Of a stretch of 64,000 nt of DNA, positions 10 through 18,563 are shown piece after piece. The translations under genes and the position numbers were made by a program. Below the pieces are notes generated by a model, which was not told the origin of the DNA, did not search any database, and worked only from the letters and a program-made list of their open reading frames with translations. Every line of letters begins with the position of its first letter. Positions within the stretch are counted from its first letter, which is position 1. The stretch comes from Candidatus Micrarchaeum sp. GTDB lineage: Archaea; SpSt-1190; DYHY01. The DNA lies in the NCBI GenBank assembly GCA_020723935.1, contig DYHY01000002.1:31465-95464 (forward strand), read 5' to 3'.

Positions 10-2310
10 ATGGCCGGGGAACCGACTGAACTGCAGCAGCCCTTCGGGGGGCTGGACGCCCGAGTGATACAAGAGGACAACGAGAGCATCCTCGAGGTCA
101 ACTGCTTCAACGTGTCCTTCTTCGCCCCGCTGGAGGACAGCGACACCTGGATGGCGAAGGTGATCTTCAAGCTGATGCAGTACCGCGAGGTCACCCAGAT
201 ACGCCTCGCCGAGCGGCGCATCTACGAGTACGACCGGGCCCAGACGCAGATGCTCAAGGAGATAGCCGAGGTCCTGAGGTTCGTTCGCACCAACAACACG
301 CTCTACAACCCCTACGCGATGAGCAACTTCCCGCAGGACGTCCACATAGGGGAGCGGTTCAGCTTCCTGCAGTCAATAGTGATGGACCTCCTCCCCCGCG
401 ATCCCATCGGCGCGTACGTTGAGCTGATCCGCCGCGCGAGGAGGGAGGAGATAGAAGCGGGCAAGGAGGGCTGGCCCGCCTACAAGGCCGGCCGCGAGCA
501 TTTCATCAAGAACGTCCTCTACGTCATCAAGGCGATCCTCGACAAGACCGGCCTGATACGCGCGGCCGCGCAGTACCTGGAGGGCTACCAGACGGGCGAC
601 CGGAAGGTCTACCGCCTCATCTTCCGCCCGACGTACCGCCCCAACTTCATGTTCACGCGCCTGATGGCCGAGATTCCCGTGGGCGCCCAGCAGCTCGACT
701 CCTATTCCGTGCGCGACGCGACGGTCACGATCTTCAGGATGCCGGGGGAGGTGAAGCCCATCTACCACCTCATGCCCCCTGAGTTCCGCCTGACGGACGA
801 GGAGTTCCAGGTGCTGGACTACGCCCGCGAGATAATGGCGCAGCACAAGCCAACGACCTCCGAGCTCATCGACCCGGGGCGCGTGCGCCTGTCCCTGCAC
901 GACGTCGCATTCGACCTGATACGCGAGTATTCCGAGAAGGGTGGCTTCCAGATGCGCCCCGCCGACAACGAGAGGCTCGCCGAGATAATGACGCGCGAGA
1001 CGGCGGGCTTCGGGATAATCGAGCTCATCCTCGCCGACGAGAAGGTCCAGGACATCGCGATAAACGCCCCGACGTCGGCATCGCCCATCCAGCTCGTCCA
1101 CGCCGATTTCGAGGACTGCCAGACGAACGTCATCCCGACGCAGGACGAGGTGGCATCCTGGGCCGCGCGCCTGCGCCTCTTCTCCGGCCGCCCGCTCGAC
1201 ACCAGCAACCCCGTCCTGGACACCTCCATCGAGATACCCGGCGCGAGGGCGCGTGTCGCCGCCGTCGCCCCGACCCTTTCGCCCTACGGCCTCGCGTTCT
1301 CGCTGCGCCGCCACAGGGAGCGGCCTTGGACCCTCCCGCTCTTCATCAAGAACCGCGCGCTCACGCCCCTCGCCGCCGGGCTCATCAGCTTCCTCGTCGA
1401 CGGCGGGCGCACGATCCTGATCGCGGGCACGAGGGGCTCGGGGAAGACGTCCCTCCTCGCCGCGATGATGTGCGAGATAATGAGGACGAACAGGATAATC
1501 ACGGTCGAGGACACGCTCGAACTCCCCACAATGAGCTTCGCGGAGATGCACTACAACATCCAGAGCCTCAAGGTGCAGAGCGCGATAGTGCAGGTTGGTA
1601 ACGAGCTCTCGGCCGCGGATGGCATCAGGACGAGCCTGCGCCTCGGCGACTCCTGCCTCATAATCGGCGAAGTGAGGAGCAAGGAGGCCCTCGCACTCTA
1701 TGAGGCGATGCGCGTCGGGGCCCTCGCGAACGTCGTCGCGGGCACCATCCACGGCGACTCCCCCTACGGCGTCTACGACCGCGTGGTGAACGACCTCGGC
1801 GTCCCGCCGACAAGCTTCAAAGCCACCGACATCATAATCGTCGCGAACCCCATCCGCTCGGCCGACGGCATGCACAGGGTGAGGCGCGTCGTCGACATCT
1901 CCGAGATAAGGAAGCACTGGGACAAGGACCCGGTGAAGGAGAAGGGCTTCGTGAGCCTCATGGAATACGATGCCAAGGACGACGAGCTCAAGCCCAACCA
2001 GATCCTCACGGACGGGGAGAGCGAGATAGTCTCAAAGATCGCGGCGCGCGTGAAGGAATGGGTGGGGAACTTCGACGCGGTGTGGGACAACATAACGATG
2101 CGGGCGAAGATGAAGAAGGCCCTCGTCGACTATTCGATATCCACCGGGAACCCCAACATCATCGAAGCCCCTTTCGTGATCGCATCGAACGATGCCGCCC
2201 ACCTCTTCGGTGAGCAGGTGAAGAGGCAACAGGGGACCCTCGTCTCCGAGTACATCTACCAGAAGTGGGACGCCTGGGTGAAGGAGCAAATAAAGGCGGG
2301 CCGGGTTTGA
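10..2310 (+). CDS. Type IV pilus/archaellum-type secretion ATPase (FlaI/TadA/GspE/VirB11 superfamily)
   Basis: 766-aa ORF with Walker A GTRGSGKTS and the DTLELP region typical of this family. Co-oriented with a downstream TadC/FlaJ-like membrane protein. The N-terminus may extend beyond the window edge. Confidence 0.85.
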   Translation: MAGEPTELQQPFGGLDARVIQEDNESILEVNCFNVSFFAPLEDSDTWMAKVIFKLMQYREVTQIRLAERRIYEYDRAQTQMLKEIAEVLRFVRTNNTLYNPYAMSNFPQDVHIGERFSFLQSIVMDLLPRDPIGAYVELIRRARREEIEAGKEGWPAYKAGREHFIKNVLYVIKAILDKTGLIRAAAQYLEGYQTGDRKVYRLIFRPTYRPNFMFTRLMAEIPVGAQQLDSYSVRDATVTIFRMPGEVKPIYHLMPPEFRLTDEEFQVLDYAREIMAQHKPTTSELIDPGRVRLSLHDVAFDLIREYSEKGGFQMRPADNERLAEIMTRETAGFGIIELILADEKVQDIAINAPTSASPIQLVHADFEDCQTNVIPTQDEVASWAARLRLFSGRPLDTSNPVLDTSIEIPGARARVAAVAPTLSPYGLAFSLRRHRERPWTLPLFIKNRALTPLAAGLISFLVDGGRTILIAGTRGSGKTSLLAAMMCEIMRTNRIITVEDTLELPTMSFAEMHYNIQSLKVQSAIVQVGNELSAADGIRTSLRLGDSCLIIGEVRSKEALALYEAMRVGALANVVAGTIHGDSPYGVYDRVVNDLGVPPTSFKATDIIIVANPIRSADGMHRVRRVVDISEIRKHWDKDPVKEKGFVSLMEYDAKDDELKPNQILTDGESEIVSKIAARVKEWVGNFDAVWDNITMRAKMKKALVDYSISTGNPNIIEAPFVIASNDAAHLFGEQVKRQQGTLVSEYIYQKWDAWVKEQIKAGRV

Positions 2311-2711
2311 ATTTTTGAACCGGCCGGCGAGAGGACCGGGACCGCAGTTAGACCGTCCTCGGCGGAGGGCAGACCAAGGCCGGACGCGTCTGAGGGCCGA
2401 GGAGGAGCAACGTACCGGTTTAACCGCAATCAACCTCGGATATTTCGCCGGCCGGCGCGGGATGCGCGGGTGGCAGAGAACGCATACCTGCGGCTAGTGA
2501 AGGGGGTCGTTCGCGCGGGAAGCCCGCTCATCGGGAGCGCGCACCTCGGGGAGATCCCGCCCGCCTATTCCGGCCTCGTCGTCCCGCACAAGCCCCCATG
2601 GAAGGTCTGGGAAATGGAGCCGGCGGTCTATTCCGCGCATTTCATCGAGGGGCGGGCGGCCCTCGCGGGAAGCCCTTGATCGCCGGGCGGGTGGGCCACT
2701 ACCTAGGGCAC

Positions 2712-2960
2712 ATGGACTATTTCGCCAAGGACCCTGGGAAGATAGCGTACGAGCTCCTCTTCCTTCTCGGGATGGTGCCATTGAGCTCAATGTTCGACCT
2801 TCTTCCCGCCTACAGGGCGAAGGATCCGGGCGGCTCGCAAGAGAAGGAGGAGAAGAACCGCAGGCTGCTCATCAGCCCGGCGATCGAGAGGATGCGGGAC
2901 GGGGAGAGCTTCCTCGCCTATCCGCAGGAGGAGATCAAGAGGAAGGAGATCCTGCTCTAG
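2712..2960 (+). CDS. Small hypothetical membrane protein. It is the first of three protein-like segments in one frame separated by TAG codons.
   Basis: Internal ATG of ORF 2598..2960. Composition is protein-like (IAYELLFLLGMVPLSSMF) and not GC-frame noise. Terminated by TAG at 2958. Confidence 0.3.
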   Translation: MDYFAKDPGKIAYELLFLLGMVPLSSMFDLLPAYRAKDPGGSQEKEEKNRRLLISPAIERMRDGESFLAYPQEEIKRKEILL

Positions 2961-3557: not shown

Positions 3558-5627
3558 ATGTATCCCAACTACTCCCCCCGGCCCGGAGGGGGTGCAAGCC
3601 TCGGCGCTTTCACGCCGTCGGACCCCTTCACGAGCCATTTCTACAAGTCCTACCGCGCCGAGGAGAAGGTCCTCCCTGCCTCGTTCTACGAGAAGTTCTG
3701 CATGTCGGTGCCCAAGTGGGCCGAGATCCCCCTACCCTTCCTGAGGAAGCAGTTCTCGAGCGTCCTGCGGGAGGCGCTCCTCGTCTGCAGCCCGGGCCAG
3801 GTCTTCACGGTGTCCTTCTACTGTTTCCTCCTCGCGATGATGGTGGCCGTCTTCGTCCTCACCTCCCTCCCCTACACACCCATACTCCTGGGCGTCGCGG
3901 TGGTCTTCCCGCTCATCGTCCTCGTCGGCTTCTACGTCTATCCGTTCCTCAAAATCAAGATGGACCGCATGGCGGTCGTGGGCGAGGCGCCTCTCGCCAT
4001 CCTCTACCTCGTCATCTCCTTGCGTGTCTCCCCGAGCCTCGAGAAGGCGGTGTCCTACGCGAGCAAGAACGTCCCCGAGCCCATAGGCCGCGAGTTCAAG
4101 TTCCTGATGTGGGACGTCGAGCTCAAGACGAAGAACTCGATGCAGGAGGCGATGTTCGCGTACAGCGCGCGGGTGAAGAAGTGGGCGCCGGGCTACTCCG
4201 ACGCGCTCTACCTCGTCACGAACTCCGTGAACGAGCCCACGAACAAGTCGCGCCTCGCGGTCCTCGAGAAGGCGATGAGCCAGGCCCTAGACAACACAAA
4301 GGGCATCATGGAGAACTTCGCAAGGGGCCTGGGCTTGCCCGTCGCCGTCACGAACGCCCTCGCAATACTCCTGCCGGTCCTCGGCCTCGTCATGGCGCCC
4401 CTCGCATCCGTCTTCATGCAGCAGGCCGGCGCCCTCCCGGCGATGCTGGCGATCGTCTACGACTTCTTCCTCCCAATAGTCCTGGGGCTCATCGTCCTCG
4501 TGATACTGGCGGGGCGCCCCGCCACCTTCTCGGACATCGACATCAGGGGCGACCCGGACCTCCCGGCCGAGGGGCACTACAGGGTGAAGGGCGTGGGCGA
4601 CATACCCCTGAACCTCGTCTGCCTCGGGATCTTCCTCGCCCTCTCGTTCATCACAATATTGGTCGCGATAAACACGGGCGGCGTCGTGTTCTCCCCCAAC
4701 CCCCTCAAGGCGGTCGGCGCGCCGATGGGCTACAACGCCCTCAACACGATCCCCTTGATAGCGGCCGTGGGTATCTCCTGCGGCATCTACCTCTACGCGA
4801 ACAACGTCCAGAAGCTCAAGGCGCGCGACAGAATCCAGGAGATAGAGCGCGAGTTCGCGGCGAGCCTCTTCCAGCTCGGGAACATCCTGGAGCAGGGCAA
4901 GCCCCTCGAGGAGGCCTTCGAGATCGCGGCGCGCGGGATGAAGGGCACGCACAGCGCCGAGTTCTTCACGAGGACCGTTCACAACATCAGGACGATGGGG
5001 ATGCCGATAAGGAAGGCAATCTTCGACCCCGAATACGGCGCGATGAGGACGTTCTCCTCGAGCCTCATGAAGAACGTCCTCGGCGTCATAATAGAGTCCG
5101 CCGACAGCGGGCCCATCGTCGCCGCGCAGACGACGCTCTCCATCTCGAGCTACGTGCAGAACATCCAGAAGGTACAGGAGAAGATAGCCGACAACCTCGC
5201 GGACAGCATAACGGCGATGAAGTTCCAGTCCGCCGTCCTCGTCCCGCTGATAAGCGCCGTGATCGTGGGCCTCACGCAAATGGTGACAAACATCCTCCTC
5301 GCGATGAGCAGGAACGTGAGCGATCTCATGTCCAGCAGCACGAACGTCGGGCTCTATTCCGTGTTCTCGTCCTCCCTCTTCAACATCGGGAACGTGATGC
5401 AGGGCTCCTACCTCCAGATGGTCGTGGGCTACTACACCCTCGTCCTCCTCACGACCCTCGGGTTCTTCACGGCGGGCCTCGCGTACGGCGTGCACGACAG
5501 AATAGCGATACAGATGAACGTGGGGCAGAGCCTCGCCCTCGGCATCATTATTTATTCGGTGATAGTCTTCTTCATAGTGACGGTGTTCGGGGGCCTGGCG
5601 ACGTCCCTCGTCAGCCAGACCGTCTAG
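3558..5627 (+). CDS. TadC/FlaJ-like polytopic membrane platform protein of a type IV pilus-like system
   Basis: 689 aa with many predicted TM helices. Size and position next to the FlaI-like ATPase match the T2SS-F/TadC/FlaJ family. Ends with TAG. Confidence 0.75.
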   Translation: MYPNYSPRPGGGASLGAFTPSDPFTSHFYKSYRAEEKVLPASFYEKFCMSVPKWAEIPLPFLRKQFSSVLREALLVCSPGQVFTVSFYCFLLAMMVAVFVLTSLPYTPILLGVAVVFPLIVLVGFYVYPFLKIKMDRMAVVGEAPLAILYLVISLRVSPSLEKAVSYASKNVPEPIGREFKFLMWDVELKTKNSMQEAMFAYSARVKKWAPGYSDALYLVTNSVNEPTNKSRLAVLEKAMSQALDNTKGIMENFARGLGLPVAVTNALAILLPVLGLVMAPLASVFMQQAGALPAMLAIVYDFFLPIVLGLIVLVILAGRPATFSDIDIRGDPDLPAEGHYRVKGVGDIPLNLVCLGIFLALSFITILVAINTGGVVFSPNPLKAVGAPMGYNALNTIPLIAAVGISCGIYLYANNVQKLKARDRIQEIEREFAASLFQLGNILEQGKPLEEAFEIAARGMKGTHSAEFFTRTVHNIRTMGMPIRKAIFDPEYGAMRTFSSSLMKNVLGVIIESADSGPIVAAQTTLSISSYVQNIQKVQEKIADNLADSITAMKFQSAVLVPLISAVIVGLTQMVTNILLAMSRNVSDLMSSSTNVGLYSVFSSSLFNIGNVMQGSYLQMVVGYYTLVLLTTLGFFTAGLAYGVHDRIAIQMNVGQSLALGIIIYSVIVFFIVTVFGGLATSLVSQTV

Positions 5628-5654: not shown

Positions 5655-5837
5655 ATGGCAAGCGAGAAGGACCTGCTTGAGCTCGTGATGGAGGTCATCC
5701 TCGTCTTCATCATAATAATCATAGTGATAGTCGTCATCTTCCCGGGGCTCAAGGACTACGCGGCCCGGCTCTCGGAGCTCCCGCGCTCGTTCTTCGTGTC
5801 GCTCCTGGACAAGATAGGCTACAGCTGGTGGGGGTAG
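5655..5837 (+). CDS. Small pilin-like membrane protein
   Basis: 60 aa, MASEK then DLLEL then a long hydrophobic helix (ILVFIIIIIVIVVIF). First of a run of co-directional small TM proteins. Confidence 0.5.
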   Translation: MASEKDLLELVMEVILVFIIIIIVIVVIFPGLKDYAARLSELPRSFFVSLLDKIGYSWWG

Positions 5838-5846: not shown

Positions 5847-6293
5847 ATGACCAGGAGATTTGTCAGGAGGAAGTGCATCGGGCGCAGGAAGGGCAGCTTC
5901 ATGGACGACTGGGTGATGAAAATAGCCTGGGGCATACTGATCCTGGGAATCCTCTACATGGTGGTCCTCATCCTCACTGCCTGGCTCAACAAGCGCGCCC
6001 CGCAGGACATCAAGCACGCGGGGGACCTCGTGATAAACCCGATGACGGGCCTCGCGCTCGGGATCCCGCCGTGGGGCGGCGCAGGGAAGGGGGGGAAGGG
6101 CAAGCGCAAGGCCAAGGCCGCGGCGGGGGGCGCCCGCAGGAAGGGCGACGCGGAGCTCTCCGTCCCGTTCTGGATAATCTTCTCCTTCGTCGTGATGCTC
6201 GTCGTCCTGATAGCCCTGAGGTACCTCAGCACCTACCTCACGAAGGTGCCCGCCCTCATAGGGAGCAAGGCGGCGGGGGGGCGGCTGATATGA
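5847..6293 (+). CDS. Pilin-like membrane protein with class III-like signal
   Basis: Basic N-terminus RRKG, then SFMDD, then hydrophobic helix. A second TM helix lies near the C-terminus. Lys/Gly-rich linker. Confidence 0.5.
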   Translation: MTRRFVRRKCIGRRKGSFMDDWVMKIAWGILILGILYMVVLILTAWLNKRAPQDIKHAGDLVINPMTGLALGIPPWGGAGKGGKGKRKAKAAAGGARRKGDAELSVPFWIIFSFVVMLVVLIALRYLSTYLTKVPALIGSKAAGGRLI

Positions 6294-6460
6294 GCCGCAG
6301 GGCCCAGGAGGGCGCGAGGCAGATGCTCGTCTTCGTCGTCGTCCTGATACTCGCGTTCATCATCCTGTGGATCTTCGCGTCCAGGAGGACGGACCCCGAC
6401 AAGATGGCGGCCGTCAGGGACGCGCTGCTCCCGATAATAGACAAGCTCAAGGGAGGATGA
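6290..6460 (+). CDS. Small pilin-like protein
   Basis: ATGA overlap with the upstream stop. MSRRAQEG, then ARQ, then MLVFVVVLILAFIILWIF. 56 aa. Confidence 0.5.
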   Translation: MSRRAQEGARQMLVFVVVLILAFIILWIFASRRTDPDKMAAVRDALLPIIDKLKGG

Positions 6461-6627
6461 TGCTAACAATGGCGATGGAAACGGATGTCGGATCGGGAAG
6501 GAAGGGTCAGGCGACGGAGATGCCGGGGCAGGTCGTGTTCTGGATACTGGCGCTGATAGGCCTCGTGATCCTCGTGATCATAGTGATGCGTGGCGGGACG
6601 CTCTTCAGGAACCTGTTCGGCACGTAG
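6457..6627 (+). CDS. Small pilin-like protein
   Basis: ATGATG overlapping the upstream TGA. GRKG, then QATEMPGQ, then VVFWILALIGLVILVIIV. Confidence 0.5.
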   Translation: MMLTMAMETDVGSGRKGQATEMPGQVVFWILALIGLVILVIIVMRGGTLFRNLFGT

Positions 6628-6660: not shown

Positions 6661-7236
6661 ATGGCAGAAGGCGACAGGAAGACAATAATCGAGACGCTCT
6701 TCGCGATACTGGGCGCCCTCCTCCTAATCGGCGTCATCGTCCTCCTCTTCTTCACCTACGTCCTCCCGCAGCTCCAGACCTACGCGGGGCCCAAGCGCGA
6801 GGCTCCGGAGCTGGAGGCGGCGCTCCAGAGCCTCTGCTTCTACCACCAGGCCTCGACCGGCCAGTCCCAGGTCGTCATCGGCGGGGGGACGAACATCGCG
6901 ACCTTCACCGACGACTACGAGCTCACGCCCCTCGCGATCGCGCAGAACATGTCAAGGTGCTTCTCCGACGTCCCGCGGGGATGCAAGGTGCAGGGCGCGG
7001 GCGGGACGTGCTCGGAGAGGTACGAATGGGAGGGCGCGGCGACGATAGACTACAGGAGCACCTGCCCATTCAACCACGAGGAGCCGGGGCTTTTCGGGCA
7101 CATCGTCTGCAGCGGCGGCTGCCCTAACTTCACAAGGGGGACATCATACCGGCTCCAGGTCGCATCGACCCTCGCGAGCCCCACGGTCTCCCTCCCCGAC
7201 TTCTGCCTCTTCTACGCCGAGGAGGTGAGGCCCTGA
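6661..7236 (+). CDS. Pilin-like protein with Cys-rich extracellular domain
   Basis: MAEGDRK, then TIIE, then TM helix, followed by a 150-aa domain with 8 Cys. Confidence 0.55.
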   Translation: MAEGDRKTIIETLFAILGALLLIGVIVLLFFTYVLPQLQTYAGPKREAPELEAALQSLCFYHQASTGQSQVVIGGGTNIATFTDDYELTPLAIAQNMSRCFSDVPRGCKVQGAGGTCSERYEWEGAATIDYRSTCPFNHEEPGLFGHIVCSGGCPNFTRGTSYRLQVASTLASPTVSLPDFCLFYAEEVRP

Positions 7237-7935: not shown

Positions 7936-8129
7936 CGGGGAAGACGGGGGCGGGGCGGGCCGCAGGCTCTCATCGGAGGGCCGAGATGGACAAGGACATA
8001 CTGATGGGGGTCATCGCGATGATAGTCATCGCCGCGATAGTGGTCCTGATATTCGTCTTCGCGAGGAACCAGATAATACACGCGTTCGAGGAGATGAAGA
8101 ACCGCCTCTCGTTCACGATAAAATTCTAG
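7932..8129 (+). CDS. Small pilin-like protein
   Basis: ATGA overlap. HRRA, then EMDKD, then ILMGVIAMIVIAAIVVLIFVF. Confidence 0.5.
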   Translation: MTGKTGAGRAAGSHRRAEMDKDILMGVIAMIVIAAIVVLIFVFARNQIIHAFEEMKNRLSFTIKF

Positions 8130-8721: not shown

Positions 8722-8751
8722 GCGGAGCGCAGGGAGAAAAACCGGAGAATA

Positions 8752-8763: not shown

Positions 8764-8788
8764 GGAAAGGGGGTGGAAGCGAGGGAAG

Positions 8789-11131: not shown

Positions 11132-11760
11132 GCGCCATGCGGGCCGCGGCTCGCCGGCGGGGGCGCATCGGGGACTTTGACATAATGATGCTCGTCGTCG
11201 CGGTGGTCGTCGGCCTCATGATACTCGTCATCGGGATACAGGTCGCCAAGATCACGAGGAAGGGCGGCGAGAGCGTCGGGAGCGACTACCAGGTCAAGGA
11301 GGGCGTCGCGTACAGCCAGCTCAAGCTCAAGTGCGGCCTCTGGCGCGACTCCATCGAGACGTGCGCGAGCGGCGCCTGCACCGCCGACTGCCCCAACTGC
11401 CTCGAGACGTTCGCAAGCGACACGCTGAAGGTCTATTCCGTCCCCTATTACGTGAGGAACTCGAAGCTGGCGAACAGCAGCTACTACGACCCCGCGAACA
11501 GCCTCCAGACGCAGAAATGCGACTCGGCCGTCGACACGTGGGCGACGAACCCCGGCGGGGAGGCCGCCCAGGCGACGATGGAGATATCCGATTTCATAAG
11601 GACCCACGGCGACGAGGCGGTGCAGATCGCCGAGGCATGCTCCTACGTCTGCCGCTGGGTGATAGAGAGGGACGAGGAGTGCAGGACAGGGGCGAGGAAC
11701 TGCGGGGATCTCGTCGTCATGAACGGCCAGCCGATGCCCTACTATCTCTACCTTCCATGA
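11128..11760 (+). CDS. Pilin-like protein with Cys-rich domain
   Basis: ATGA overlap. RRRG, then RIGDFD, then IMMLVVAVVVGLMILVIGI. 10 Cys in the C-terminal domain. Confidence 0.55.
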   Translation: MSAMRAAARRRGRIGDFDIMMLVVAVVVGLMILVIGIQVAKITRKGGESVGSDYQVKEGVAYSQLKLKCGLWRDSIETCASGACTADCPNCLETFASDTLKVYSVPYYVRNSKLANSSYYDPANSLQTQKCDSAVDTWATNPGGEAAQATMEISDFIRTHGDEAVQIAEACSYVCRWVIERDEECRTGARNCGDLVVMNGQPMPYYLYLP

Positions 11761-11770
11761 GGGGCACAGC

Positions 11771-12331
11771 ATGGTAGGCCACGCGAGAGCGATGCGGAAC
11801 CGCGCGAGGGTGGCGATCGGGCGGCGGGGCTCGATGGACCAGACGATCTGGATTGTCGTCGCGATGATAATAGCTGTCGCCGTCGGAGCGATAATGATGC
11901 GGATGATAGACAAGTCGCGCCAGGTGGAATCCCTCTCCGGCGAGGACAGGTTCTCCCCGGCGGCCGAGACCTTCTGCGCGGAATGGTTCCAGCCGGCGCA
12001 GGAGCCGCGGCCGAGGGAATACGCGCCGTCCCAGGCAGCCCTGGAGAAGTCGACTGACACCTTCCGGGGCATAGGCTGGCTCTCCGCCCAGAAGAATACC
12101 GTCTCCAAGGCCTACATTGAGCCCGGCCCCGTGACAGGCTGCGACTGCACGGTCTTCCTCGCCTCCACCGCCGGCCATTCGAGGCTCGGGGAATCGCCGG
12201 CCGCCGGGCTCCTGCGGTCCGAGTCCGGGAGCGGTTCGTCCTACTCCCCGGAAGCCTGCCATAGGAGGGCTGCCTGCGTCGCCCGCTCCCTCCCCGCCCT
12301 GGCCGTCTTCTTCGAGGAAAGAACCTGCTAG
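11771..12331 (+). CDS. Pilin-like protein. Member of a three-member paralog family with 12401 and 31102.
   Basis: RRG, then SMDQT, then IWIVVAMIIAVAVGAIMM. Shares FCxxW, RKYGWL and TGCDC[TI]VFL[AT]S motifs with 12401..12994 and 31102..32877. Confidence 0.6.
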   Translation: MVGHARAMRNRARVAIGRRGSMDQTIWIVVAMIIAVAVGAIMMRMIDKSRQVESLSGEDRFSPAAETFCAEWFQPAQEPRPREYAPSQAALEKSTDTFRGIGWLSAQKNTVSKAYIEPGPVTGCDCTVFLASTAGHSRLGESPAAGLLRSESGSGSSYSPEACHRRAACVARSLPALAVFFEERTC

Positions 12332-12361
12332 GCGCCATTTAAGCCCTCTCAAAAGGCCAAA

Positions 12362-12375
12362 ACAATAAATAATAC
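12362..12375 (+). promoter_or_regulatory. TATA-box-like element upstream of the 12401 gene
   Basis: acaataaataatac is centred about 30 nt upstream of the ATG. A similar element sits ahead of the degraded paralog at 31102. Confidence 0.4.
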
Positions 12376-12400
12376 AGTAGCATTAACACAAGACAGCACC

Positions 12401-12994
12401 ATGGCCCACGGACGCAAATCAAGCGAACAACCCATCTGGCTTCTAGTCGCGCTACTGCTAGCGGTCGTAGTCGGCATAGCGATGTTCAGCACGATCAACA
12501 GTGGCATGAACAAGTTCGGCACATTCACCCAGGCCACCGGCCAGGAGAGCGACCGGATAGCGATAGAGACTTTCTGCAAGAACTGGATAAGGCCGCAGGA
12601 AGTCGACCTTGCGGGCAACATCAACCCGCGCGCATCCGAGCCCACCGCGCCGGAGCGCGAGAGGGCGACGGACTCGTTCAGGAAGTACGGCTGGCTCCTC
12701 GCGGAGAAGGACTCGAACAAGGTGTATCTGGAGACGGGCCCGCCCAGCGGATGCGACTGCATAGTCTTCCTCACCTCAAGCGTCGGCTCGTCCTCGCTCC
12801 CGCCCACCAGAGCCAAGCAGTTCCTCGTCTCCGAAGCCAGCACCGGCTCAATGTACGACCCGGTAAAGTGCGGATTCAAGGCGTACTGCATCGGGAAGAC
12901 GTCCATACCGGAGCTTGGGGGCGTCGAGCTGTTCGGCGAGGGGAGCCTGAGCGCCACGGCGATGGAAGCCAAGTTCCCGGCGCGCACCTGCTAG
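12401..12994 (+). CDS. Pilin-like protein, paralog of 11771 and 31102
   Basis: MAHGRKSSEQP, then IWLLVALLLAVVVGIAMF. Nucleotide identity to the region 31150–31400 is roughly 85–90% by eye. Confidence 0.6.
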   Translation: MAHGRKSSEQPIWLLVALLLAVVVGIAMFSTINSGMNKFGTFTQATGQESDRIAIETFCKNWIRPQEVDLAGNINPRASEPTAPERERATDSFRKYGWLLAEKDSNKVYLETGPPSGCDCIVFLTSSVGSSSLPPTRAKQFLVSEASTGSMYDPVKCGFKAYCIGKTSIPELGGVELFGEGSLSATAMEAKFPARTC

Positions 12995-13064: not shown

Positions 13065-13664
13065 ATGGCGCGAAAATATGGTTGCCGGCGGCGCAGGAGG
13101 GGCCAGGTCACAGACACGCTCCTCATGGTCGCCTTCTTCGCGCTCACGATGTTCCTCCTCGCCCGCTGGGCGCTCTACTACGCGAACGTCTCGGACAAGG
13201 CGAGGACGATAATAACGATGAACAACATCAAGGACGCGATCGAGCAGGTCTGCACGAACAAGCGCGTCCAGATATCGGTGAAGGTCGTCCTCCCGCAGGA
13301 TTCGGCGCTCCTCCCCTTCTCCTGCGACCAGGTCCAGGCGCTCTCGACAATAGGCCCGATAGGGGGCGTAACCAAGGACGTCTCGCACGTCGGGGGCTTG
13401 GAGGCTGTCATTGACGACTGCCAGAGGAAGGGCGAATCCAAGAAGAACGCTGCCCTCCTCTACATCTGGAAGAAGGACGCCCAGAAGATCCTCTGGGTGA
13501 TACAAACCTCCCCGGAGGAGCTCAACGTCGAGGCGGTAACAACGTACTGCGTCCTGAGGGACTATAGCGGGGAGGCGTTCCTGGGCGGAAGGAAGCAGAG
13601 CGCGGAGGTCGGGCTCACGCAGGCGGGCGTCGTCTACACGAGGCCCGTCTCCCTGGAGGCATGA
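13065..13664 (+). CDS. Pilin-like membrane-anchored protein
   Basis: RRRRRG, then QVTDT, then LLMVAFFALTMFLLA. Confidence 0.55.
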   Translation: MARKYGCRRRRRGQVTDTLLMVAFFALTMFLLARWALYYANVSDKARTIITMNNIKDAIEQVCTNKRVQISVKVVLPQDSALLPFSCDQVQALSTIGPIGGVTKDVSHVGGLEAVIDDCQRKGESKKNAALLYIWKKDAQKILWVIQTSPEELNVEAVTTYCVLRDYSGEAFLGGRKQSAEVGLTQAGVVYTRPVSLEA

Positions 13665-15316
13665 AAAGGGGGATGGCTGGGAGGAAGGGCGACTGGGGCG
13701 GATACTACATAATCCTCGCGATAATGTTCGTCGTCATCGGCGGCTGGATAATAAACATGGCCGTCAATTCCATGAACACCTGTAAGATGGACGTCCCGGA
13801 GAGGACGACGCGCATCAAGGAAATAGTGGAGAAGGTGTGCCTCGATCCCCTTCCCGGGACGAGCGAGACGTTCGTCGGGAGCTCCTGCCCCTCGCGCTAC
13901 GAGGTGACGGCGGCCTCCTGCAGCGACCTTACGTGGCGCATGGCATTCAGGGATCTTCGCACGGGGTTCTTCGGCAAGCCCTTCGGCCTCACCTGGTTCT
14001 CCCCCCGGACCGGGAGCCCCCCGTCCAACCCCTCGCCCCATTTCACAACTAGCCTCACCAACGAGCAGGTCATGAACGAGATACTTGACAGGGCGCGCGA
14101 GCTGGACGACCCCGACAGCATACTCGTCCAGACCGCAAGGGTCGTCCCGCACGGCCACCACCTCCCCGGCACGATCGTCTCCCCGTTCACAAACACATAC
14201 GTCCCCGAAGTCATAACGAACGAGCACCTCGCGAAGATCCCCGTGAGCCTGGACAAGACGATCGTCATCTCCGACATGGACGAGGACGACTTCACGGGCG
14301 GGATGCTCGCGGCCGTCGCCTCCGCCGAGGAGATGAACTTCATATGGAAGAACGACATAAGCCGCAAGCTCGTCGGCGTCTATACGCTCATCGGGATGCA
14401 GATATACGGCAGCGTCACCTTCGGCCCGAAGAACTCCCCGGCGGCATCCTACGTGATAGCGACCGCCCCCCAGTTGACCCTGAGGCGCGACCGGGCCCAG
14501 CACCTCGCCTCCGCCTATTTCGACTACGTGGGGAAGTACGGGACGGCTTCTGCCAAGGCGATAGCGGGCGGGGCGAACGCGACCGTCTGGAACTCGGCCG
14601 ATCCATGGCAGAGTCTGGTCGACGCGAGCAACAGGATCTCCTCGGTCCCGTGCAACGAGCCCGGCGACTTTTGCCCGATGCAGAGCTACGCGAACGACCT
14701 CCTCGCCGGGATAAACGACGCCCTCGTCAGGATGCGGGGCCTCTACTCCTCGATCGCTGCCGGCAGGGCGGACACGATCGCCCTCCTGCAGGCGAGGATC
14801 GATTCCGGGGCCTGCGGCTCAATCGCCAGCGGCTCGGAGAGGTTCCCGACGTGCGCGGCGATGATATCGTGCAACTGGATAGACAGGACTCTCACCGAGC
14901 GCCTCCAGAAGAACGGCTGCCTCATGAGCGCGGTCAACGTCAACGGGAACCTGGAGGCGCTGCCCCTCGGCGTCATGGAGCGCGAGGCGGCCCTCGAGGT
15001 CTGGGACATAAACCTCCCGGAGAGCACGGCGTCCAAGATCTCCGGGGAGTACAGCTACCGCCCGGCGATACACTGCCCGTCGATAATCCCCGGAAGCCAC
15101 CTCCCCGCGTGGGGCCACGAGGCGGAGAAGGTCGTCGCGGTGTGCATGCACGACAAGAACCCGGAATGCTCCAAGGACGACACCTGCTACTACTGCTACA
15201 CAATCCAGTGCGCCAACAAGGTGAGCGTGGAGACTGAGCCCGCGACGGCGATAACCGTGAAGAACGTCGAGGGGAGCGGGACGGAGCTGCGCGGCGCAAT
15301 ATACCGGATAAAGTGA
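13661..15316 (+). CDS. Large pilin-like or membrane-anchored extracellular protein
   Basis: ATGA overlap. MKRGMAGRKG, then DWGG, then YYIILAIMFVVIGGWII. 551 aa with Cys pairs. Confidence 0.55.
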   Translation: MKRGMAGRKGDWGGYYIILAIMFVVIGGWIINMAVNSMNTCKMDVPERTTRIKEIVEKVCLDPLPGTSETFVGSSCPSRYEVTAASCSDLTWRMAFRDLRTGFFGKPFGLTWFSPRTGSPPSNPSPHFTTSLTNEQVMNEILDRARELDDPDSILVQTARVVPHGHHLPGTIVSPFTNTYVPEVITNEHLAKIPVSLDKTIVISDMDEDDFTGGMLAAVASAEEMNFIWKNDISRKLVGVYTLIGMQIYGSVTFGPKNSPAASYVIATAPQLTLRRDRAQHLASAYFDYVGKYGTASAKAIAGGANATVWNSADPWQSLVDASNRISSVPCNEPGDFCPMQSYANDLLAGINDALVRMRGLYSSIAAGRADTIALLQARIDSGACGSIASGSERFPTCAAMISCNWIDRTLTERLQKNGCLMSAVNVNGNLEALPLGVMEREAALEVWDINLPESTASKISGEYSYRPAIHCPSIIPGSHLPAWGHEAEKVVAVCMHDKNPECSKDDTCYYCYTIQCANKVSVETEPATAITVKNVEGSGTELRGAIYRIK

Positions 15317-15388: not shown

Positions 15389-16546
15389 ATGGCCGAGGGA
15401 CCCAGCTCGTCTACAAGCATCGGGACGATACTGGGCCTCGTCATCGAGGTCATCGTCCTCATCGTCGTGATGGGGATGGTCGCATCCGAGGTCACGTACC
15501 TCGCGACGATGGCCCACCTCCAGGAGGCCAAGATCCTCGCGAGCACGATAGCCGGCATGATAACCGCCGTCTCCGCGGCGCCGCAGGCCGGCCTCTACTG
15601 CGTCTCCATCCCCGCGACCCTGGGCTACGACGTCGCGATCGGGAGCGCGAAGCTGGACAACGTCGGGAGCGCCCTGGAGCTTCGCGACGTACCAGACCTC
15701 TCCCCCTGGTGCCCCGTGAGCGCCCTGCCCTACGCGGATGCGGAGGGCGTCCCCTACATCCAGGAGTTCAAGGCCGCCGCCGACAAGTACGACGTCCCGG
15801 TCGCCGCCCTCCTCGCCGTCGGGCAGCTGGAGAGCGGCCTGCAGCACTACGAACCCGACGGCATGACGGTGAAGGTGAGCCCCACCGGGGCGGTCGGGAT
15901 AATGCAGATTCTGGACGGCCCGACGGAATTGGCGGCGAACATAGACAGGGGCGCGAAGGAGTTCCGCTCGAAGATGGACTATTTCGACGGCGACGTCCAG
16001 GCCGCCTTCGCGGCGTACAGCGGCGGGAACGCGGGGGCCGCCGAGCAGATAGACCTGGCCGGGCGCGAGATCTGGATAGAGAGCATTCTGGCCTTCTCGA
16101 GCCTGCGCACACACCTCTACAACGACGTGAAGACGTACGGTAGCTGCAGCTGCATGTCCGCCGACGAGTACCTGGCCGGCACGATGCCCCCGTTCCCGGG
16201 CGGCCTCACCTACACGGCCGAGCGCCAGAACGCGTGCGAGGTCAAGAGGGGGACCGAATACGCGCGCGGCTTCGAGGCCCTCGGCCTGGGCTCGGTGAAA
16301 TACGGTTTCGTCGCGGCGATAAAGAAGGAGGGGCGCTCTGGAGGCGTCTCCTACATGCCGGTCTCAAACATCGACAGCCAGGTCATACGCGTGCCCGTCG
16401 GGCAGAAGTACACTCTCCTTGCTAAGAAGGCACTCGTCCCGCGGCTGAGCGGCGGGTATGAGGAGAAAATAGTGCTACGCCTGAGGAAAGGAGGCCTCGC
16501 GCAGGCAGGATGCAACGTCGACACCCCGTCGATATGCATCTACTGA
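15389..16546 (+). CDS. Membrane-anchored SLT-domain protein (lytic transglycosylase, lysozyme-like family)
   Basis: N-terminal TM helix. The canonical SLT motifs are present: LLAVGQLESGL (the catalytic ES), GAVGIMQI, and AAYSGGNAG (the AY-N-G motif). Confidence 0.75.
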   Translation: MAEGPSSSTSIGTILGLVIEVIVLIVVMGMVASEVTYLATMAHLQEAKILASTIAGMITAVSAAPQAGLYCVSIPATLGYDVAIGSAKLDNVGSALELRDVPDLSPWCPVSALPYADAEGVPYIQEFKAAADKYDVPVAALLAVGQLESGLQHYEPDGMTVKVSPTGAVGIMQILDGPTELAANIDRGAKEFRSKMDYFDGDVQAAFAAYSGGNAGAAEQIDLAGREIWIESILAFSSLRTHLYNDVKTYGSCSCMSADEYLAGTMPPFPGGLTYTAERQNACEVKRGTEYARGFEALGLGSVKYGFVAAIKKEGRSGGVSYMPVSNIDSQVIRVPVGQKYTLLAKKALVPRLSGGYEEKIVLRLRKGGLAQAGCNVDTPSICIY

Positions 16547-16548
16547 AG

Positions 16549-17826
16549 ATGGCGGCCGAAACCAGGAGGAAGGGAGCCGCGGGCGGAAGGAGGCGGGGCC
16601 AGTCGCTCTCCAGCGTCGTGATCCTGCTCCTCACCCTCACAATCCTCGTCGTCGTCATAGTCACATCCATCGTCGCGAACGCGGAGTTCAACGCCATGTT
16701 CGGCAACCACCTGAAATCGCGCGAGGCGCTCCTGATCGCCTCCAAGATAACGGGCGCCCCGCAAATAGCCCTGGACATGGGACGCGAGGGCCTGCACAAG
16801 AACATGCTAGACACCCGCCGCCTCGACACCCTGAACAGGACGCACCGCGCCAAGATGCCGGCGAGCGCCTACGTCTTCTGCTACAACTGGCGCGCCGAGA
16901 TCTACGACACGGACCTGAAGAAATATTGGGAGTTCGGCGCGAGGAACCCTGCGAGGGACGCGATGTACGAGCTGTGCCTGGCGTACGGATGGGGCATGGG
17001 CGGGGCGGCCTACGGCGGGCAGTTCGAGGACCCCAGCTGCCTCGCGATCGCGCAGGGCGCCGACAGCAGCGACGTCGGCGAGGACTATTTCGTAATCCCG
17101 GTGACACTTGTCAACTACGCAGGCAACAAGCTCAAGAACTACACCTTCGGCGCGATGAGGGTGGCCGTCTGGGCGAACTCCAGCCAGTGCATCGGGGAGA
17201 ACGACAGGGAGAAGCAGTACAACGAGGCCGTGCGCCTCATCGAGAGCGCCCCCCTGTTCGTGCCCACGAGCTCCCAGGCTGAGCTGCCCTACCAGCCCAA
17301 GAGCATCGCCGTCCCGGGCGGGGCGACGTACTCGACGATGAGGTGTGAGGAGCTCCTGATAGAGAGGATACGGATGCATTTCGACGAGGTGCGCGCCGAG
17401 AACATGAAGGCCAGGGCGCCGGCCTACACCGACCGGATCGAGGAGGCGGCGAGGGCTGCCGACGTTGACGCGAACCTCCTGCGGGCAGTAGTCGCCGGTA
17501 GGAGCGGCTTCTCCCCGGAATATCCCAACGGGGGCTTCACGGGCCTGCCGGCGTCGGTCTATCCCACCCCGCCGATGGACGTGAGCGAGAACCTTGCGGC
17601 CGCGGCAACCCTCCTTCGCCAGTACCTTGACCAGGCTTCCACGCAGTACAACGGCGGGCACTGCTCGCTCAACTATGCGATCTACGCCTATCTCACGAGC
17701 GGGGAGGTCCTCTCGCAGTACGTCGCCGGGACACTCAAGCCCTCCGGCCCGGTAGAGGCAGTCTCCCAGGACATAATCTCGCTTTTCGACAAGTTCAACT
17801 CGTGCTCGGAGTCGATAGCTACATGA
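16549..17826 (+). CDS. Pilin-like membrane-anchored protein with a degenerate SLT-like segment
   Basis: ATG is 3 nt after the upstream TGA. RRRG, then QSLSS, then VVILLLTLTILVVVIVTSIV. The C-terminal stretch LLRAVVAGRSGFSPEYPNGGFTGL resembles an SLT fold but lacks the Glu. Confidence 0.5.
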   Translation: MAAETRRKGAAGGRRRGQSLSSVVILLLTLTILVVVIVTSIVANAEFNAMFGNHLKSREALLIASKITGAPQIALDMGREGLHKNMLDTRRLDTLNRTHRAKMPASAYVFCYNWRAEIYDTDLKKYWEFGARNPARDAMYELCLAYGWGMGGAAYGGQFEDPSCLAIAQGADSSDVGEDYFVIPVTLVNYAGNKLKNYTFGAMRVAVWANSSQCIGENDREKQYNEAVRLIESAPLFVPTSSQAELPYQPKSIAVPGGATYSTMRCEELLIERIRMHFDEVRAENMKARAPAYTDRIEEAARAADVDANLLRAVVAGRSGFSPEYPNGGFTGLPASVYPTPPMDVSENLAAAATLLRQYLDQASTQYNGGHCSLNYAIYAYLTSGEVLSQYVAGTLKPSGPVEAVSQDIISLFDKFNSCSESIAT

Positions 17827-18563
17827 CGGGCGAGGAAGCCGGAAGGCGGAGCGGCGGGCGCAGGGCGCAGGGCGCCGAGACGATAGTCGTGCTCATCTTC
17901 ATCGTCGCGATGTTCTTCGCGCTCATCGTCGCTTTGGCGTTCCTCAAATTCAAGGTGAACTTCGCGATAACGGAGGTGAGTGCGCAGGAGGACCAGCTCC
18001 CGACGATGCAGGCGCTCTCCTACTCCACCGTCGGGCGGCTCATAAGGACGCCCGTGCTCTTCTACAACCTCGCTAGCATCGCATCCGTCACGGGCCAGGA
18101 CGTCTTCATCTTCTCGGCTGAGAGCGGCTCGGTGAGCATCCAAGACATACTGAACCAGAAGCTCGAGACGTATTCCGCGGGGCAGCTAGCGCTCTTCTAC
18201 CCCAAGTGCTTCGAATACAACCTGAACGACGAGATGCGCGGACCCCTCTGGACCAAGTTCCTCGCCGCGGGCACGATCCAGGCCGACAGCTGCCAGGAGT
18301 ACGGGGCGAGCCAGGCGGACAAGGGCCAGGAGACGTTTGCCAAGAAGAACTACATCTACTTCTTCCCGCTCCCGCCCCTCTCCGACGGGACGGCGCGCCT
18401 GAGCGAGCAGTTCATCAGGGTCTTCGCCCTGCGCGACAAGCCCAGGATCATGGCCCCCTCCGGAGGGGTGGAGCGGCCCGACTGCAACGCCAACGGCGCG
18501 GCCGCGTCCCTCCCCGAGGACTGCTGCTCTGGAAGGATGGCTGGCGGAGTCTGCATGCCCTGA
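17823..18563 (+). CDS. Pilin-like protein. Last gene of the locus.
   Basis: ATGA overlap. GRRAQG, then AET, then IVVLIFIVAMFFALIVALAFL. C-terminal CC..C motif. Confidence 0.55.
   Translation: MTGEEAGRRSGGRRAQGAETIVVLIFIVAMFFALIVALAFLKFKVNFAITEVSAQEDQLPTMQALSYSTVGRLIRTPVLFYNLASIASVTGQDVFIFSAESGSVSIQDILNQKLETYSAGQLALFYPKCFEYNLNDEMRGPLWTKFLAAGTIQADSCQEYGASQADKGQETFAKKNYIYFFPLPPLSDGTARLSEQFIRVFALRDKPRIMAPSGGVERPDCNANGAAASLPEDCCSGRMAGGVCMP

What the first reader, a model, noticed from the sequence alone, without database searches (positions are those of the whole stretch)
10..18563. Archaeal type IV pilus-like locus with about 21 tandem class III signal-peptide genes and Cys-rich ectodomains
A FlaI/TadA ATPase and a TadC/FlaJ platform protein are followed on the same strand by 21 genes with small gaps or ATGA overlaps. 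Nearly every product starts with a basic stretch, then G or A, then an acidic/polar stretch, then a hydrophobic helix: RRG then FEPV (9390), RG then AVEVT (10679), RRG then QVTDT (13065), QG then AET (17823), KA then VENS (8789), and so on. That is the prepilin architecture, and the cleavage-site assignment from it is an inference. Sizes run from 56 to 551 aa, and most carry disulfide-rich domains. The count and diversity of putative pilin or pilus-tip proteins is far beyond a typical archaeal adhesion pilus or archaellum operon. No prepilin peptidase is in the window.
Basis: partly seen in the sequence, partly recalled or inferred. Interest (0 to 1): 0.8.

Follow-up and report, generated by a model that had tools for sequence, protein, structure and literature searches.

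The report
Archaeal pilus-type operon with many pilin-like genes
An uncultivated archaeon carries a type IV pilus-like assembly motor followed by about 18 genes for cysteine-rich surface proteins with pilin-like front ends, two of them carrying enzymes that cut bacterial cell walls, which suggests a surface machine for contacting or attacking bacteria.

Summary
The locus is real, with corrections. A T2SSE-family ATPase (10-2310) and a divergent T2SSF platform protein (3558-5627) are followed on the + strand by 18 genes, not 21. All 18 begin with one hydrophobic helix. Fourteen have a [KR][G/A/S] site just before it by my rule, and one more by eye. Cysteine makes up 3.0% of their residues, against 0.9% in other window proteins. 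The same gene order recurs on at least six other archaeal contigs. ATPase identity to those whose ATPase was compared is 56-78%, while the downstream proteins are only about 30% identical. It is not an archaellum.

The pilin assignment is only partly supported. The site is conserved in orthologs behind leaders of variable length. However, no known pilin HMM matches, no prepilin peptidase was found among the window proteins scanned, and the motif alone is not beyond composition. The one confident structure model shows a helix, a flexible linker and a disulfide-stapled four-helix bundle, not a classical pilin head. Seven adjacent genes are paralogs of that "CxxW" domain.

One operon gene carries an intact SLT domain. 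A roughly 2150-residue neighbour, outside the flagged range, has the same front end plus SLT-like and M23 domains. Best reading: an undescribed Tad/Epd-like type IV filament variant that displays surface proteins and cell-wall hydrolases.

The parts
10..2310 (+). Secretion ATPase of 766 aa with a Walker A motif (GTRGSGKTS). The first ~280 residues are an extension with no match in PDB.
   Evidence: Pfam T2SSE 1.8e-16. NCBIfam best partial hits are the TadA family (2e-38) and FlaI (2.4e-35), both far below cutoff. PDB best matches are afGspE 2OAP and CpaF, then FlaI. 1916 homologs of about 760 aa; where a source names an organism beyond 'archaeon' it is a DPANN phylum, but most hits are unnamed.
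2598..2960 (+). Small ORF of 120 aa or less, of uncertain reality, in the 1.25-kb gap between the ATPase and platform genes.
   Evidence: GC3 0.80. No Pfam hit. No counterpart in the related loci.
3558..5627 (+). Polytopic platform protein of 689 aa, a divergent T2SSF (FlaJ/TadC-like).
   Evidence: Its own T2SSF hit has E=0.029 and covers profile positions 4-123 of 125. 46 full-length homologs; 14 of 27 aligned members hit PF00482, best 2.5e-7.
5655..5837 (+). 60-aa single-helix protein with an acidic N-terminus and no [KR]G site. A gene of similar size holds the same position directly after the platform gene in most related loci.
   Evidence: Genes of 60-72 aa follow the platform gene in L003, L004, L005, L006, L009 and L011. 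Homology among them was not tested.
5847..6293 (+). 148-aa protein with two units in one chain: RRKG|SFMDD + helix 1, a very basic linker, then RRKG|DAELS + helix 2.
   Evidence: The same two-unit layout is seen in L001 16379-16756. The second unit is a separate 48-aa gene in L005.
6367..6627 (+). Tiny pilin-like protein (GRKG|QATEMPGQVVFW...). The real start is probably near 6457, and the predicted mature form is about 39 aa.
   Evidence: The low GC3 (0.69) of the long ORF suggests a later start.
6661..7236 (+). 191-aa protein with an N-terminal helix and 8 Cys, and no [KR]G site.
   Evidence: Ortholog L001 17082 (29% identity).
7237..7935 (+). 232-aa protein with the pattern CxC...CxC.
   Evidence: The Cys pattern is shared with L001 17732, L003 15661 and L005 16465.
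7911..8129 (+). Tiny pilin-like protein (HRRA|EMDKDILMG...). The predicted mature form is about 48 aa with no Cys.
8173..12994 (+). Seven adjacent paralogs of the 'CxxW' family: 8173-8721, 8789-9355, 9390-10682, 10679-11131, 11101-11760, 11771-12331 and 12401-12994. Each has a front helix, a linker and a disulfide-rich helical head.
   Evidence: The first Cys always lies in a CxxW motif about 30-45 residues after the helix, and a CxxxC-x9-C motif is shared by four of the seven. The 8789 family has 8 invariant Cys. AF2 gives a head pLDDT of about 90 as a four-helix bundle. PDB gives only generic bundle matches. The 12401 group has a highly conserved helix, PIWLLVALLLAVVVG.
13065..13664 (+). 199-aa pilin-like protein with RRG|QVTD (Gln at +1), a long N-terminal helix and predicted strands after it.
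   Evidence: The site is conserved in L007 and L003 orthologs. Helix identity 47% against 32% for the rest. The AF2 single-sequence model is unreliable, pLDDT 42.
13661..15316 (+). 551-aa protein with 16 Cys (RKG|DWGG). Its helix is poorly conserved but its ectodomain is well conserved, so it behaves like an anchor.
   Evidence: Identity 25% for the helix against 61% for the rest, compared with L007. No Pfam hit.
15389..16546 (+). 385-aa protein with an N-terminal helix (no [KR]G site) and a lytic transglycosylase (SLT/GH23) domain that keeps its motifs: LES, GIMQI and AYSGG.
   Evidence: Pfam SLT 1.7e-7, 31.3 bits against a 21.3-bit cutoff. Motifs read directly. Orthologs P0187 and P0188. Its N-terminal part matches L003 19588, which lacks SLT.
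16510..17826 (+). 438-aa protein (RRRG|QSLSS) whose C-terminal part is faintly SLT-like, with Arg where the catalytic Glu would be by my reading.
   Evidence: Pfam SLT E=0.057. The N-terminal part matches L003 20097.
17802..18563 (+). Last gene of the co-directional run, about 246-253 aa with 6 Cys (RRAQG|AETIVV).
   Evidence: The N-terminal part matches L003 20738.
18618..19610 (-). 330-aa protein on the opposite strand with a lipobox-like LSGC and a Thr/Pro-rich linker. It is a neighbour, and whether it belongs to the system is unknown.
   Evidence: sequence. No Pfam hit.
20017..26475 (+). Giant surface protein of about 2150 aa. The ORF is open from 19612, and the likely start is the TTG at 20017. 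It has the same front end (RRG|VGPAVIIIGG...), two weak TIM-barrel glycosidase-like regions, an SLT-like domain (ORF residues 1483-1638, motif DES) and a C-terminal M23 peptidase (HNGLD and HLH motifs).
   Evidence: Peptidase_M23 4.7e-16, above cutoff. SLT-like region 31% identical to the 15389 SLT domain, E=2e-14. GH30_2 and GH39 hits near 1e-3, below cutoff. Start inferred from the GC3 rise. Cys 3.6%.

Best explanation
This is a lineage-specific type IV filament (TFF) system of the archaeal Tad/Epd-like kind, in an uncultivated archaeon whose closest named relatives of the motor proteins are DPANN archaea.

Shown:
- a T2SSE ATPase and a divergent T2SSF platform protein head a tight co-directional operon;
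- the 18 downstream products each begin with one hydrophobic helix, usually preceded by a basic cluster, a small residue and an acidic residue;
- the gene order is conserved across distant relatives while the ectodomains diverge fast;
- seven adjacent genes are paralogs of one disulfide-stapled helical head;
- one operon gene, and a giant neighbour with the same front end, carry peptidoglycan-cutting domains with intact motifs.

Inferred:
- a prepilin peptidase encoded elsewhere cuts after [KR][G/A];
- the ATPase and platform extract the helices from the membrane and polymerise them;
- the tiny subunits (about 39-48 aa mature: 6367, 7911 and the second unit of 5847) and the groups with a conserved helix (12401/11771, 13065) form the filament or pseudopilus core;
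- the larger Cys-rich proteins use the same front end to be built in as minor subunits, or held at its base, which displays their heads on flexible linkers;
- in this lineage the display set includes an SLT enzyme and an SLT+M23+glycosidase giant, so the likely job is adhesion to bacterial cells and local breaching of their wall (host or prey contact).
For: Motor: T2SSE; T2SSF by transitive homology; closest solved ATPases are afGspE and CpaF rather than FlaI.

Operon: GC3 0.84-0.92, with small gaps or overlaps between genes.

Synteny: L001, L003, L005/L010, L007, L009 and L011 share the order platform, 3-5 tiny one-helix genes, then Cys-rich genes.

Fast-evolving surface proteins: between the window and L001 the ATPase is 78% identical and the platform 66-67%, but the downstream proteins are about 29-37%.

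Cleavage-type site: [KR][G/A/S] is conserved while leader length varies from 3 to about 24 residues. It is present in 9 of 9 members of the 12401 group, 7 of 7 of the 8789 family, and all members of the 10679 and 13065 groups. The sites (KG|Q, RG|Q, KA|V, RA|E) resemble experimentally known archaeal sites listed in PMC4371748.

Pilin hallmark, helix more conserved than head: 54 vs 28% in the 12401 group and 47 vs 32% in the 13065 group.

Enzymes: SLT above the Pfam cutoff with catalytic motifs; M23 above cutoff. The SLT gene's N-terminal part is orthologous to an SLT-less gene in L003, so the enzyme was added to a conserved system component.
Against: No Peptidase_A24 was found among the window proteins scanned or among the called genes within 10 kb of the ATPase or SLT gene in L002-L007.

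No known pilin, archaellin, Flp or class III signal HMM matches any product.

The motif is not enriched over shuffles of the N-regions.

In L003 and L005 several orthologs have very short leaders and no [KR]G site.

The one confident model has a helix of only about 26 residues and a disordered linker, and its head does not pack on the helix.

Most ortholog groups do not conserve the helix better than the head, and the 13661 group does the reverse.

The SLT protein itself lacks the site.

SLT and M23 were seen only in the window's closest clade, not in the parts of L001, L003, L005, L009 and L011 that were held. The link between pilus and cell-wall attack may therefore be recent or coincidental.
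Confidence: 0.65

Rival explanations
1. Most of the 18 proteins are not pilins. They are uncleaved bitopic membrane proteins: either assembly or alignment parts comparable to PilN/PilO, GspL/M or FlaF/FlaG, or cell-envelope proteins that are simply co-transcribed. Only a few tiny products, or pilins encoded elsewhere, would form the filament.
For: The motif is not beyond composition. The model is a helix, a disordered linker and a bundle. The helix is no better conserved than the head in 7 of 9 ortholog groups tested, and is worse in the 13661 group. Leaders are missing in several L003 and L005 orthologs. No pilin HMM hits and no peptidase were found.
Against: The [KR][G/A] site sits at a fixed position while leaders vary in length across genomes of different GC content. 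An acidic residue lies within 1-5 residues after the site in most products. The helix of the 12401 group is extremely conserved. Eighteen accessory proteins would be far more than any known T4P alignment complex needs.
Confidence: 0.3
2. The system is a type II secretion-like or bindosome-like machine. A short pseudopilus does not form a long adhesive fibre. Instead it pushes out or organises enzymes and binding proteins at the surface, including the cell-wall hydrolases.
For: Globular heads sit on flexible linkers behind a class III-like front end, as in Sulfolobus bindosome substrates (the functionalised-TFF idea is in bioRxiv 10.64898/2026.04.22.720090). Enzymes carry the same front end.
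Against: No substrate-binding-protein domains were found. The ATPase scores 65 bits against the BasE model, whose cutoff is 1000. No free secreted substrates are evident. This reading overlaps largely with the best explanation and differs mainly in filament length.
Confidence: 0.2
3. The locus is an archaellum (motility) operon.
For: FlaI is among the ATPase hits, and JGI names some homologs FlaI.
Against: The FlaI model scores 122 bits against a 550-bit cutoff. afGspE and CpaF score better than FlaI. There are no archaellin, FlaF/G, FlaH or FlaCDE/X hits.
Confidence: 0.02

Closest known systems
Archaeal Tad/Epd-like type IV filament systems (Makarova et al. 2016 clades; 'system 1' of Sivabalasarma & Albers 2026; Tad-like clusters reported in Undinarchaeota and Nanohaloarchaeota)
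   Same: A VirB11/T2SSE-family ATPase plus a TadC/FlaJ-type platform, followed by several small proteins with basic-G/A-hydrophobic front ends. Some sites have Gln at +1 (KG|Q, RG|Q), as in EppA substrates. The ATPase is nearest to afGspE and CpaF. For DPANN clusters the pilins were reported as not annotatable (PMC9563170).
   Different: One fused platform protein of about 690 aa, rather than two. The ATPase has an unmatched N-terminal extension of about 280 residues. There are about 15 pilin-like genes in one operon. The heads are disulfide-stapled helical bundles that match no arCOG-type or Pfam pilin family that I could test. No peptidase lies in the neighbourhood. Peptidoglycan hydrolases are part of the set.
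Sulfolobus bindosome (Bas) and the 'functionalised TFF' hypothesis
   Same: Functional globular proteins carry a class III-type front end and are thought to be organised at the surface by a dedicated ATPase and platform pair.
   Different: The cargo here is Cys-rich bundles and cell-wall hydrolases, not sugar-binding proteins. The ATPase is not a BasE equivalog (65 bits against a 1000-bit cutoff).
Thermoproteales T4P subclades 4B/4D/4E with conserved multi-cysteine components (Makarova et al. 2016, PMC4858521)
   Same: Almost all extracellular components carry multiple conserved cysteines, thought to form stabilising disulfides.
   Different: A different lineage and different protein families. 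Here a single head domain has expanded into 5-7 tandem paralogs.
Giant extracellular murein-transglycosylase proteins of Woese- and Pacearchaeota (fam00969, Castelle et al. 2021; Vigneron et al. 2022)
   Same: A very large archaeal surface protein with a lytic transglycosylase domain, proposed to bind or degrade bacterial cell walls.
   Different: Here the giant protein has a pilin-like front end, carries an added M23 peptidase, sits next to a TFF operon, and a second, smaller SLT protein lies inside the operon. Homology to fam00969 was not tested.
Type IV pili of episymbiotic Saccharibacteria (Patescibacteria)
   Same: Ultra-small symbionts use T4P with several pilins for host binding (PMC12206443).
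   Different: That is a bacterial T4aP-type machine with classical pilins. No sequence relationship was shown, so this is an analogy only.

Membership tests
Type IV filament (TFF) assembly system | Hexameric secretion ATPase of the T2SSE/VirB11 family | tested here: met
   Pfam T2SSE 1.8e-16 and a Walker A motif. PDB matches afGspE, CpaF and FlaI.
Type IV filament (TFF) assembly system | Polytopic platform protein of the T2SSF family (PilC/TadC/FlaJ) | tested here: met
   The protein's own hit is below cutoff (E=0.029), but 14 of 27 full-length homologs hit PF00482, best 2.5e-7. A profile search against PDB found nothing.
Type IV filament (TFF) assembly system | Filament subunits with a class III signal peptide (short basic leader, G/A at -1, hydrophobic helix) | tested here: inconclusive
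   The architecture is present in 14-15 of 18 genes and the site is conserved in orthologs. However, it is not beyond shuffles, no pilin HMM hits, and FlaFind/PilFind were not available.
Type IV filament (TFF) assembly system | Prepilin peptidase (Peptidase_A24: PibD/FlaK/EppA/TadV) | tested here: not met
   No A24 hit among the window proteins scanned or among called genes of L002-L007. The rest of the genome could not be searched.
Classical type IV pilin fold | Long N-terminal helix whose second half packs against a beta-sheet head | tested here: not met
Archaellum | FlaI equivalog plus archaellins (FlaB), FlaF/G, FlaH and FlaCDE or FlaX | tested here: not met
   FlaI model 122 bits against a 550-bit cutoff. 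No Pfam hits to archaellum components in any locus product.
Tad/Flp pilus | TadA/CpaF ATPase, TadB plus TadC platform pair, Flp pilin (PF04964) and TadE/F pseudopilins | tested here: not met
   The TadA-family model is the top NCBIfam hit, but at 132 bits against a 373-bit cutoff. There is a single fused platform protein. There are no Flp or TadE hits. The resemblance is limited to tiny predicted mature subunits.
Bindosome assembly system (Bas) | [quoted passage not shown] | tested here: not met
   BasE model 65 bits against a 1000-bit cutoff. No substrate-binding-protein domains.
Lytic transglycosylase (SLT, GH23) | SLT domain with the catalytic Glu-Ser motif and the GxMQ and AYNxG motifs | tested here: met
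   15389-16546: Pfam SLT 31.3 bits against a 21.3-bit cutoff, with motifs LES, GIMQI and AYSGG. The giant protein's region is 31% identical, E=2e-14, with DES, GIMAV and MYSGG. Enzyme activity was not tested.
Peptidase M23 | HxxxD and HxH zinc-binding motifs | tested here: met
   C-terminus of the giant protein: Pfam 59.2 bits against a 28.7-bit cutoff, with motifs HNGLD and HLH.

The most novel reading that the evidence does not exclude
The operon builds a filament, or a surface array anchored in a filament, whose subunits include peptidoglycan hydrolases attached through a pilin-type front end. That would be an archaeal type IV filament repurposed as a cross-domain attack or attachment organelle, letting a DPANN-like archaeon bind bacteria and open their cell wall. 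It would come with a previously undescribed, rapidly diversifying family of disulfide-stapled four-helix-bundle pilin heads that serve as variable adhesins.
Probability: 0.25. Interest if true: 0.85.

Novelty: new variant of a known kind. Interest (0 to 1): 0.6.

Why it matters
Pilus-type clusters are repeatedly reported in DPANN and related uncultivated archaea. One study of DPANN clusters reported that no pilins could be annotated (PMC9563170), and what these machines do is unknown. This locus and its relatives supply a concrete candidate subunit set, with conserved order, conserved processing-type sites and one expanded head domain.

In one lineage the locus also ties the machine physically to enzymes that only make sense against bacterial cell walls. 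That turns a vague proposal, that some small archaea live on or prey on bacteria, into testable predictions. These concern processing by an A24 peptidase, the composition of the filament, and the activity and placement of the SLT and M23 domains.

If the pilin reading fails, the locus still defines a large, fast-evolving family of cysteine-rich surface proteins coupled to a secretion ATPase.

Tried and rejected
- Archaellum: rejected.
- Known pilin families: Pfam scans of all products at E<=0.01, and of eight products at E<=10, gave nothing relevant. NCBIfam likewise.
- Platform protein against PDB: neither the single sequence nor the profile matched.
- Shuffle test of the [KR][GAS] motif: no enrichment, so I dropped the motif count as stand-alone evidence.
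- AFDB fold search: library not available.
- Metagenome scan with the SLT protein: nothing found. The wide platform alignment had no searchable block. The narrower alignment gave 4 loci.
- Exact look-up of the window's own ATPase, to see upstream of the window: failed twice, so the region before coordinate 1 is unseen.
- Homolog search with the SLT protein: only 3 proteins.
- Taxonomy: cluster look-ups returned only 'archaeon', and the window holds no tRNA or rRNA. The DPANN affiliation rests on the names carried by ATPase and platform homologs.
- 28310-28909 (-): checked as a possible peptidase and is not one.
- Gap 2311-3557: nothing conserved with the related loci.

Full report
**Observation.** The window is archaeal. 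It holds aEF1A, aEF2, deoxyhypusine synthase and ribosomal proteins S7 and S12. GC is 63%, and real genes have GC3 near 0.9. From coordinate 10 to 18563 the + strand carries an unbroken run of high-GC3 ORFs separated by small gaps or overlaps.

The first is a 766-aa ATPase of the T2SSE family (Pfam 1.8e-16). After a 1.25-kb gap comes a 689-aa polytopic membrane protein. Its own match to T2SSF is only E=0.029, although it covers almost the whole profile. Its 46 full-length homologs settle the question: 14 of 27 aligned members hit PF00482, best 2.5e-7, and sources name some of them TadB or T2SS-F.

Eighteen genes follow, not 21. Every product starts with one strongly hydrophobic helix. By a simple rule ([KR][G/A/S] within 7 residues of a hydrophobic stretch), 15 of 19 proteins pass: 14 of the 18 genes plus the giant downstream protein. 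Only 4 of 37 other window proteins pass. Cysteine is 3.0% of residues in the 18 proteins and 3.6% in the giant protein, against 0.9% elsewhere in the window.

**Is the N-terminal motif more than chance?** Not on its own. The regions before the helix are rich in Arg, Gly and Ala, as expected at this GC content. Shuffling them produces the motif almost as often as observed (13 observed against a mean of 11.3).

The support comes from relatives with 47-57% GC. In the 8789 family the only invariant N-terminal positions are Arg followed by [KR][AG], behind leaders of 1 to 15 residues. In the 12401 group all nine members have [KR][G/A/S] at the same aligned position, behind leaders of 3 to about 24 residues. 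The 10679 group reads RRG|AVEVT, RKG|AVELT, RKG|ALQLT and RRG|GIDIV. The 13065 group reads RG|QVTD, AG|QVTD and RG|QMAD. These resemble known archaeal processing sites such as KG|QV, RA|QI and RA|VS (PMC4371748). An acidic residue within one to five positions after the site is also usual.

Against this, several orthologs in L003 and L005 have very short leaders and no such site. The products of 5655, 6661 and 15389 lack it as well.

**Conservation.** Closer relatives at 56-87% identity lie on unnamed archaeal contigs.

Related loci share one gene order: ATPase, platform, three to five tiny one-helix proteins, a Cys8 protein, a CxC...CxC protein, a block of CxxW proteins, a Gln+1 protein, then larger proteins.
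- L001: ATPase 78% identical.
- L003: ATPase 60% identical.
- L005/L010: ATPase 59% identical.
- L007: a fragment with orthologs of seven consecutive genes.
- L009 and L011: platform 40% and 36% identical.

Between the window and L001 the ATPase is 78% identical and the platform 66-67%. The downstream proteins are only about 29-37% identical. That contrast is typical of exposed surface proteins. The 8789 family has just eight relatives among 1.84 billion representative proteins.

**What the downstream proteins look like.** Seven adjacent window genes (8173 to 12994) share a first cysteine in a CxxW motif about 30-45 residues after the helix, and four of them also share a CxxxC-x9-C motif. The same holds for four to six genes in each related locus. 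They are therefore tandem paralogs of one head domain.

The model of 13065, which by sequence looks more like a pilin, is unreliable (pLDDT 42).

The pilin hallmark of a helix better conserved than the head holds for the 12401 group (54 vs 28%, with a nearly invariant PIWLLVALLLAVVVG) and the 13065 group (47 vs 32%). It does not hold for the others, and it is reversed for 13661 (25 vs 61%).

Each locus also has tiny products whose predicted mature forms are 36-50 residues, for example KG|QATEMPGQVVFW.... They are the size of Flp-type subunits.

**Enzymes.** 15389-16546 carries an SLT domain above the Pfam cutoff, with the Glu-Ser, GIMQ and AYSGG motifs. Its N-terminal part is orthologous to an SLT-less gene in L003. 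A conserved component therefore gained the enzyme in this lineage.

Beyond the flagged range lie a 330-aa lipobox protein on the opposite strand and then a giant gene. Its ORF is open from 19612, and the likely start is 20017. Its front end is RRG|VGPAVIIIGG.... It has two weak TIM-barrel glycosidase-like regions. It also has an SLT-like domain 31% identical to that of 15389 (E=2e-14) and an M23 peptidase above cutoff with its zinc motifs.

Large archaeal SLT proteins are already known from Woese- and Pacearchaeota and were proposed to act on bacterial walls (PMC8204110, PMC9723730). A link to a pilus-type operon was not mentioned in the papers I read. SLT and M23 were found only in the window's closest clade (window, L007, P0188), not in the held parts of the other loci.

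**Interpretation.** The motor is a type IV filament motor and not an archaellum. afGspE and CpaF score above FlaI. The FlaI model reaches 122 of the 550 bits required. No archaellum parts are present.

The best reading is an undescribed Tad/Epd-like variant. A few subunits probably build a filament or pseudopilus: the tiny ones and the groups with a conserved helix. A larger, fast-evolving set of Cys-rich proteins then uses the same front end to be displayed, including wall hydrolases in this lineage. This is close in logic to the bindosome and to the recent 'functionalised TFF' proposal (bioRxiv 10.64898/2026.04.22.720090).

The main rival is that most of these proteins are uncleaved bitopic membrane proteins. 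Four results favour it:
- no peptidase was found;
- no pilin HMM hits any product;
- the 8789 model is not pilin-like;
- helix conservation is mixed across ortholog groups.

**Novelty.** Archaeal loci with many pilins, cysteine-rich T4P components (PMC4858521) and Tad-like clusters in DPANN with no annotated pilins (PMC9563170) are all known. So this is a new variant of a known kind. Its distinguishing features are:
- a fused platform protein of about 690 aa;
- an ATPase with an unmatched N-terminal extension of about 280 residues;
- about 15 pilin-like genes in one operon;
- a new disulfide-stapled bundle head expanded in tandem;
- peptidoglycan hydrolases attached to the same front end.

The organism's placement is uncertain. 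Sources call the closest relatives only 'archaeon'.

Noticed in passing
window 5847-6293; L001 16379-16756: One polypeptide holds two pilin-like units: helix 1, a very basic linker ending in RRKG|DAELS (KRKG|QVDDE in L001), then helix 2. In L005 the second unit is a separate 48-aa gene. An internal processing-type site behind a first membrane helix fits no known prepilin layout.
   Followed up: partly
window 2961-3557: Between the ATPase and platform genes lies a (TTC)7(GTC)6 trinucleotide run at 2994-3032. The stretch has GC3 of 0.86-0.91 in the platform gene's frame but contains in-frame stops, so it may be a decayed gene. It has no counterpart in the related loci.
   Followed up: partly
window 20017-26475 (ORF open from 19612): A giant surface protein of about 2150 aa lies outside the flagged range. 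It has a pilin-like front end, two weak TIM-barrel glycosidase-like regions, an SLT-like domain and a C-terminal M23 peptidase. Cys makes up 3.6% of its residues.
   Followed up: partly
window 16510-17826: The C-terminal part is faintly SLT-like (E=0.057). By my reading Arg stands where the catalytic Glu would be (AGRSGF), so it may be an inactive, wall-binding copy.
   Followed up: partly
window 18618-19610 (-): A 330-aa protein on the opposite strand, wedged between the operon and the giant gene. It has a lipobox-like LSGC and a Thr/Pro-rich linker, and no Pfam hit.
   Followed up: no
window 48509-49966 (+): The deoxyhypusine synthase ORF is 485 aa, but the Pfam DS domain covers only residues 166-474. 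It either has an N-terminal extension of about 160 residues or its start is called too early.
   Followed up: no
window 41106-42113 (+): A protein that combines an ArsR-type helix-turn-helix domain with a region matching the S-layer outer domain (S_layer_C, 6.9e-8).
   Followed up: no
window 62429-62968 (-): The ribosomal protein S12 ORF is 179 aa, and the Pfam domain starts at residue 70. This is either an N-terminal extension or an over-long start call.
   Followed up: no
P0102, P0111 (ATPase homologs): Two members of the ~760-aa ATPase family are about 1270 aa long and carry intein/homing-endonuclease domains (PF14528, PF14890).
   Followed up: no
L002 10001-12250: A 61%-identical ATPase homolog has no adjacent platform gene or downstream array. 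It is followed by eIF-1A, RIO1 and topoisomerase VI genes, so it looks like an orphan copy or a split locus.
   Followed up: no
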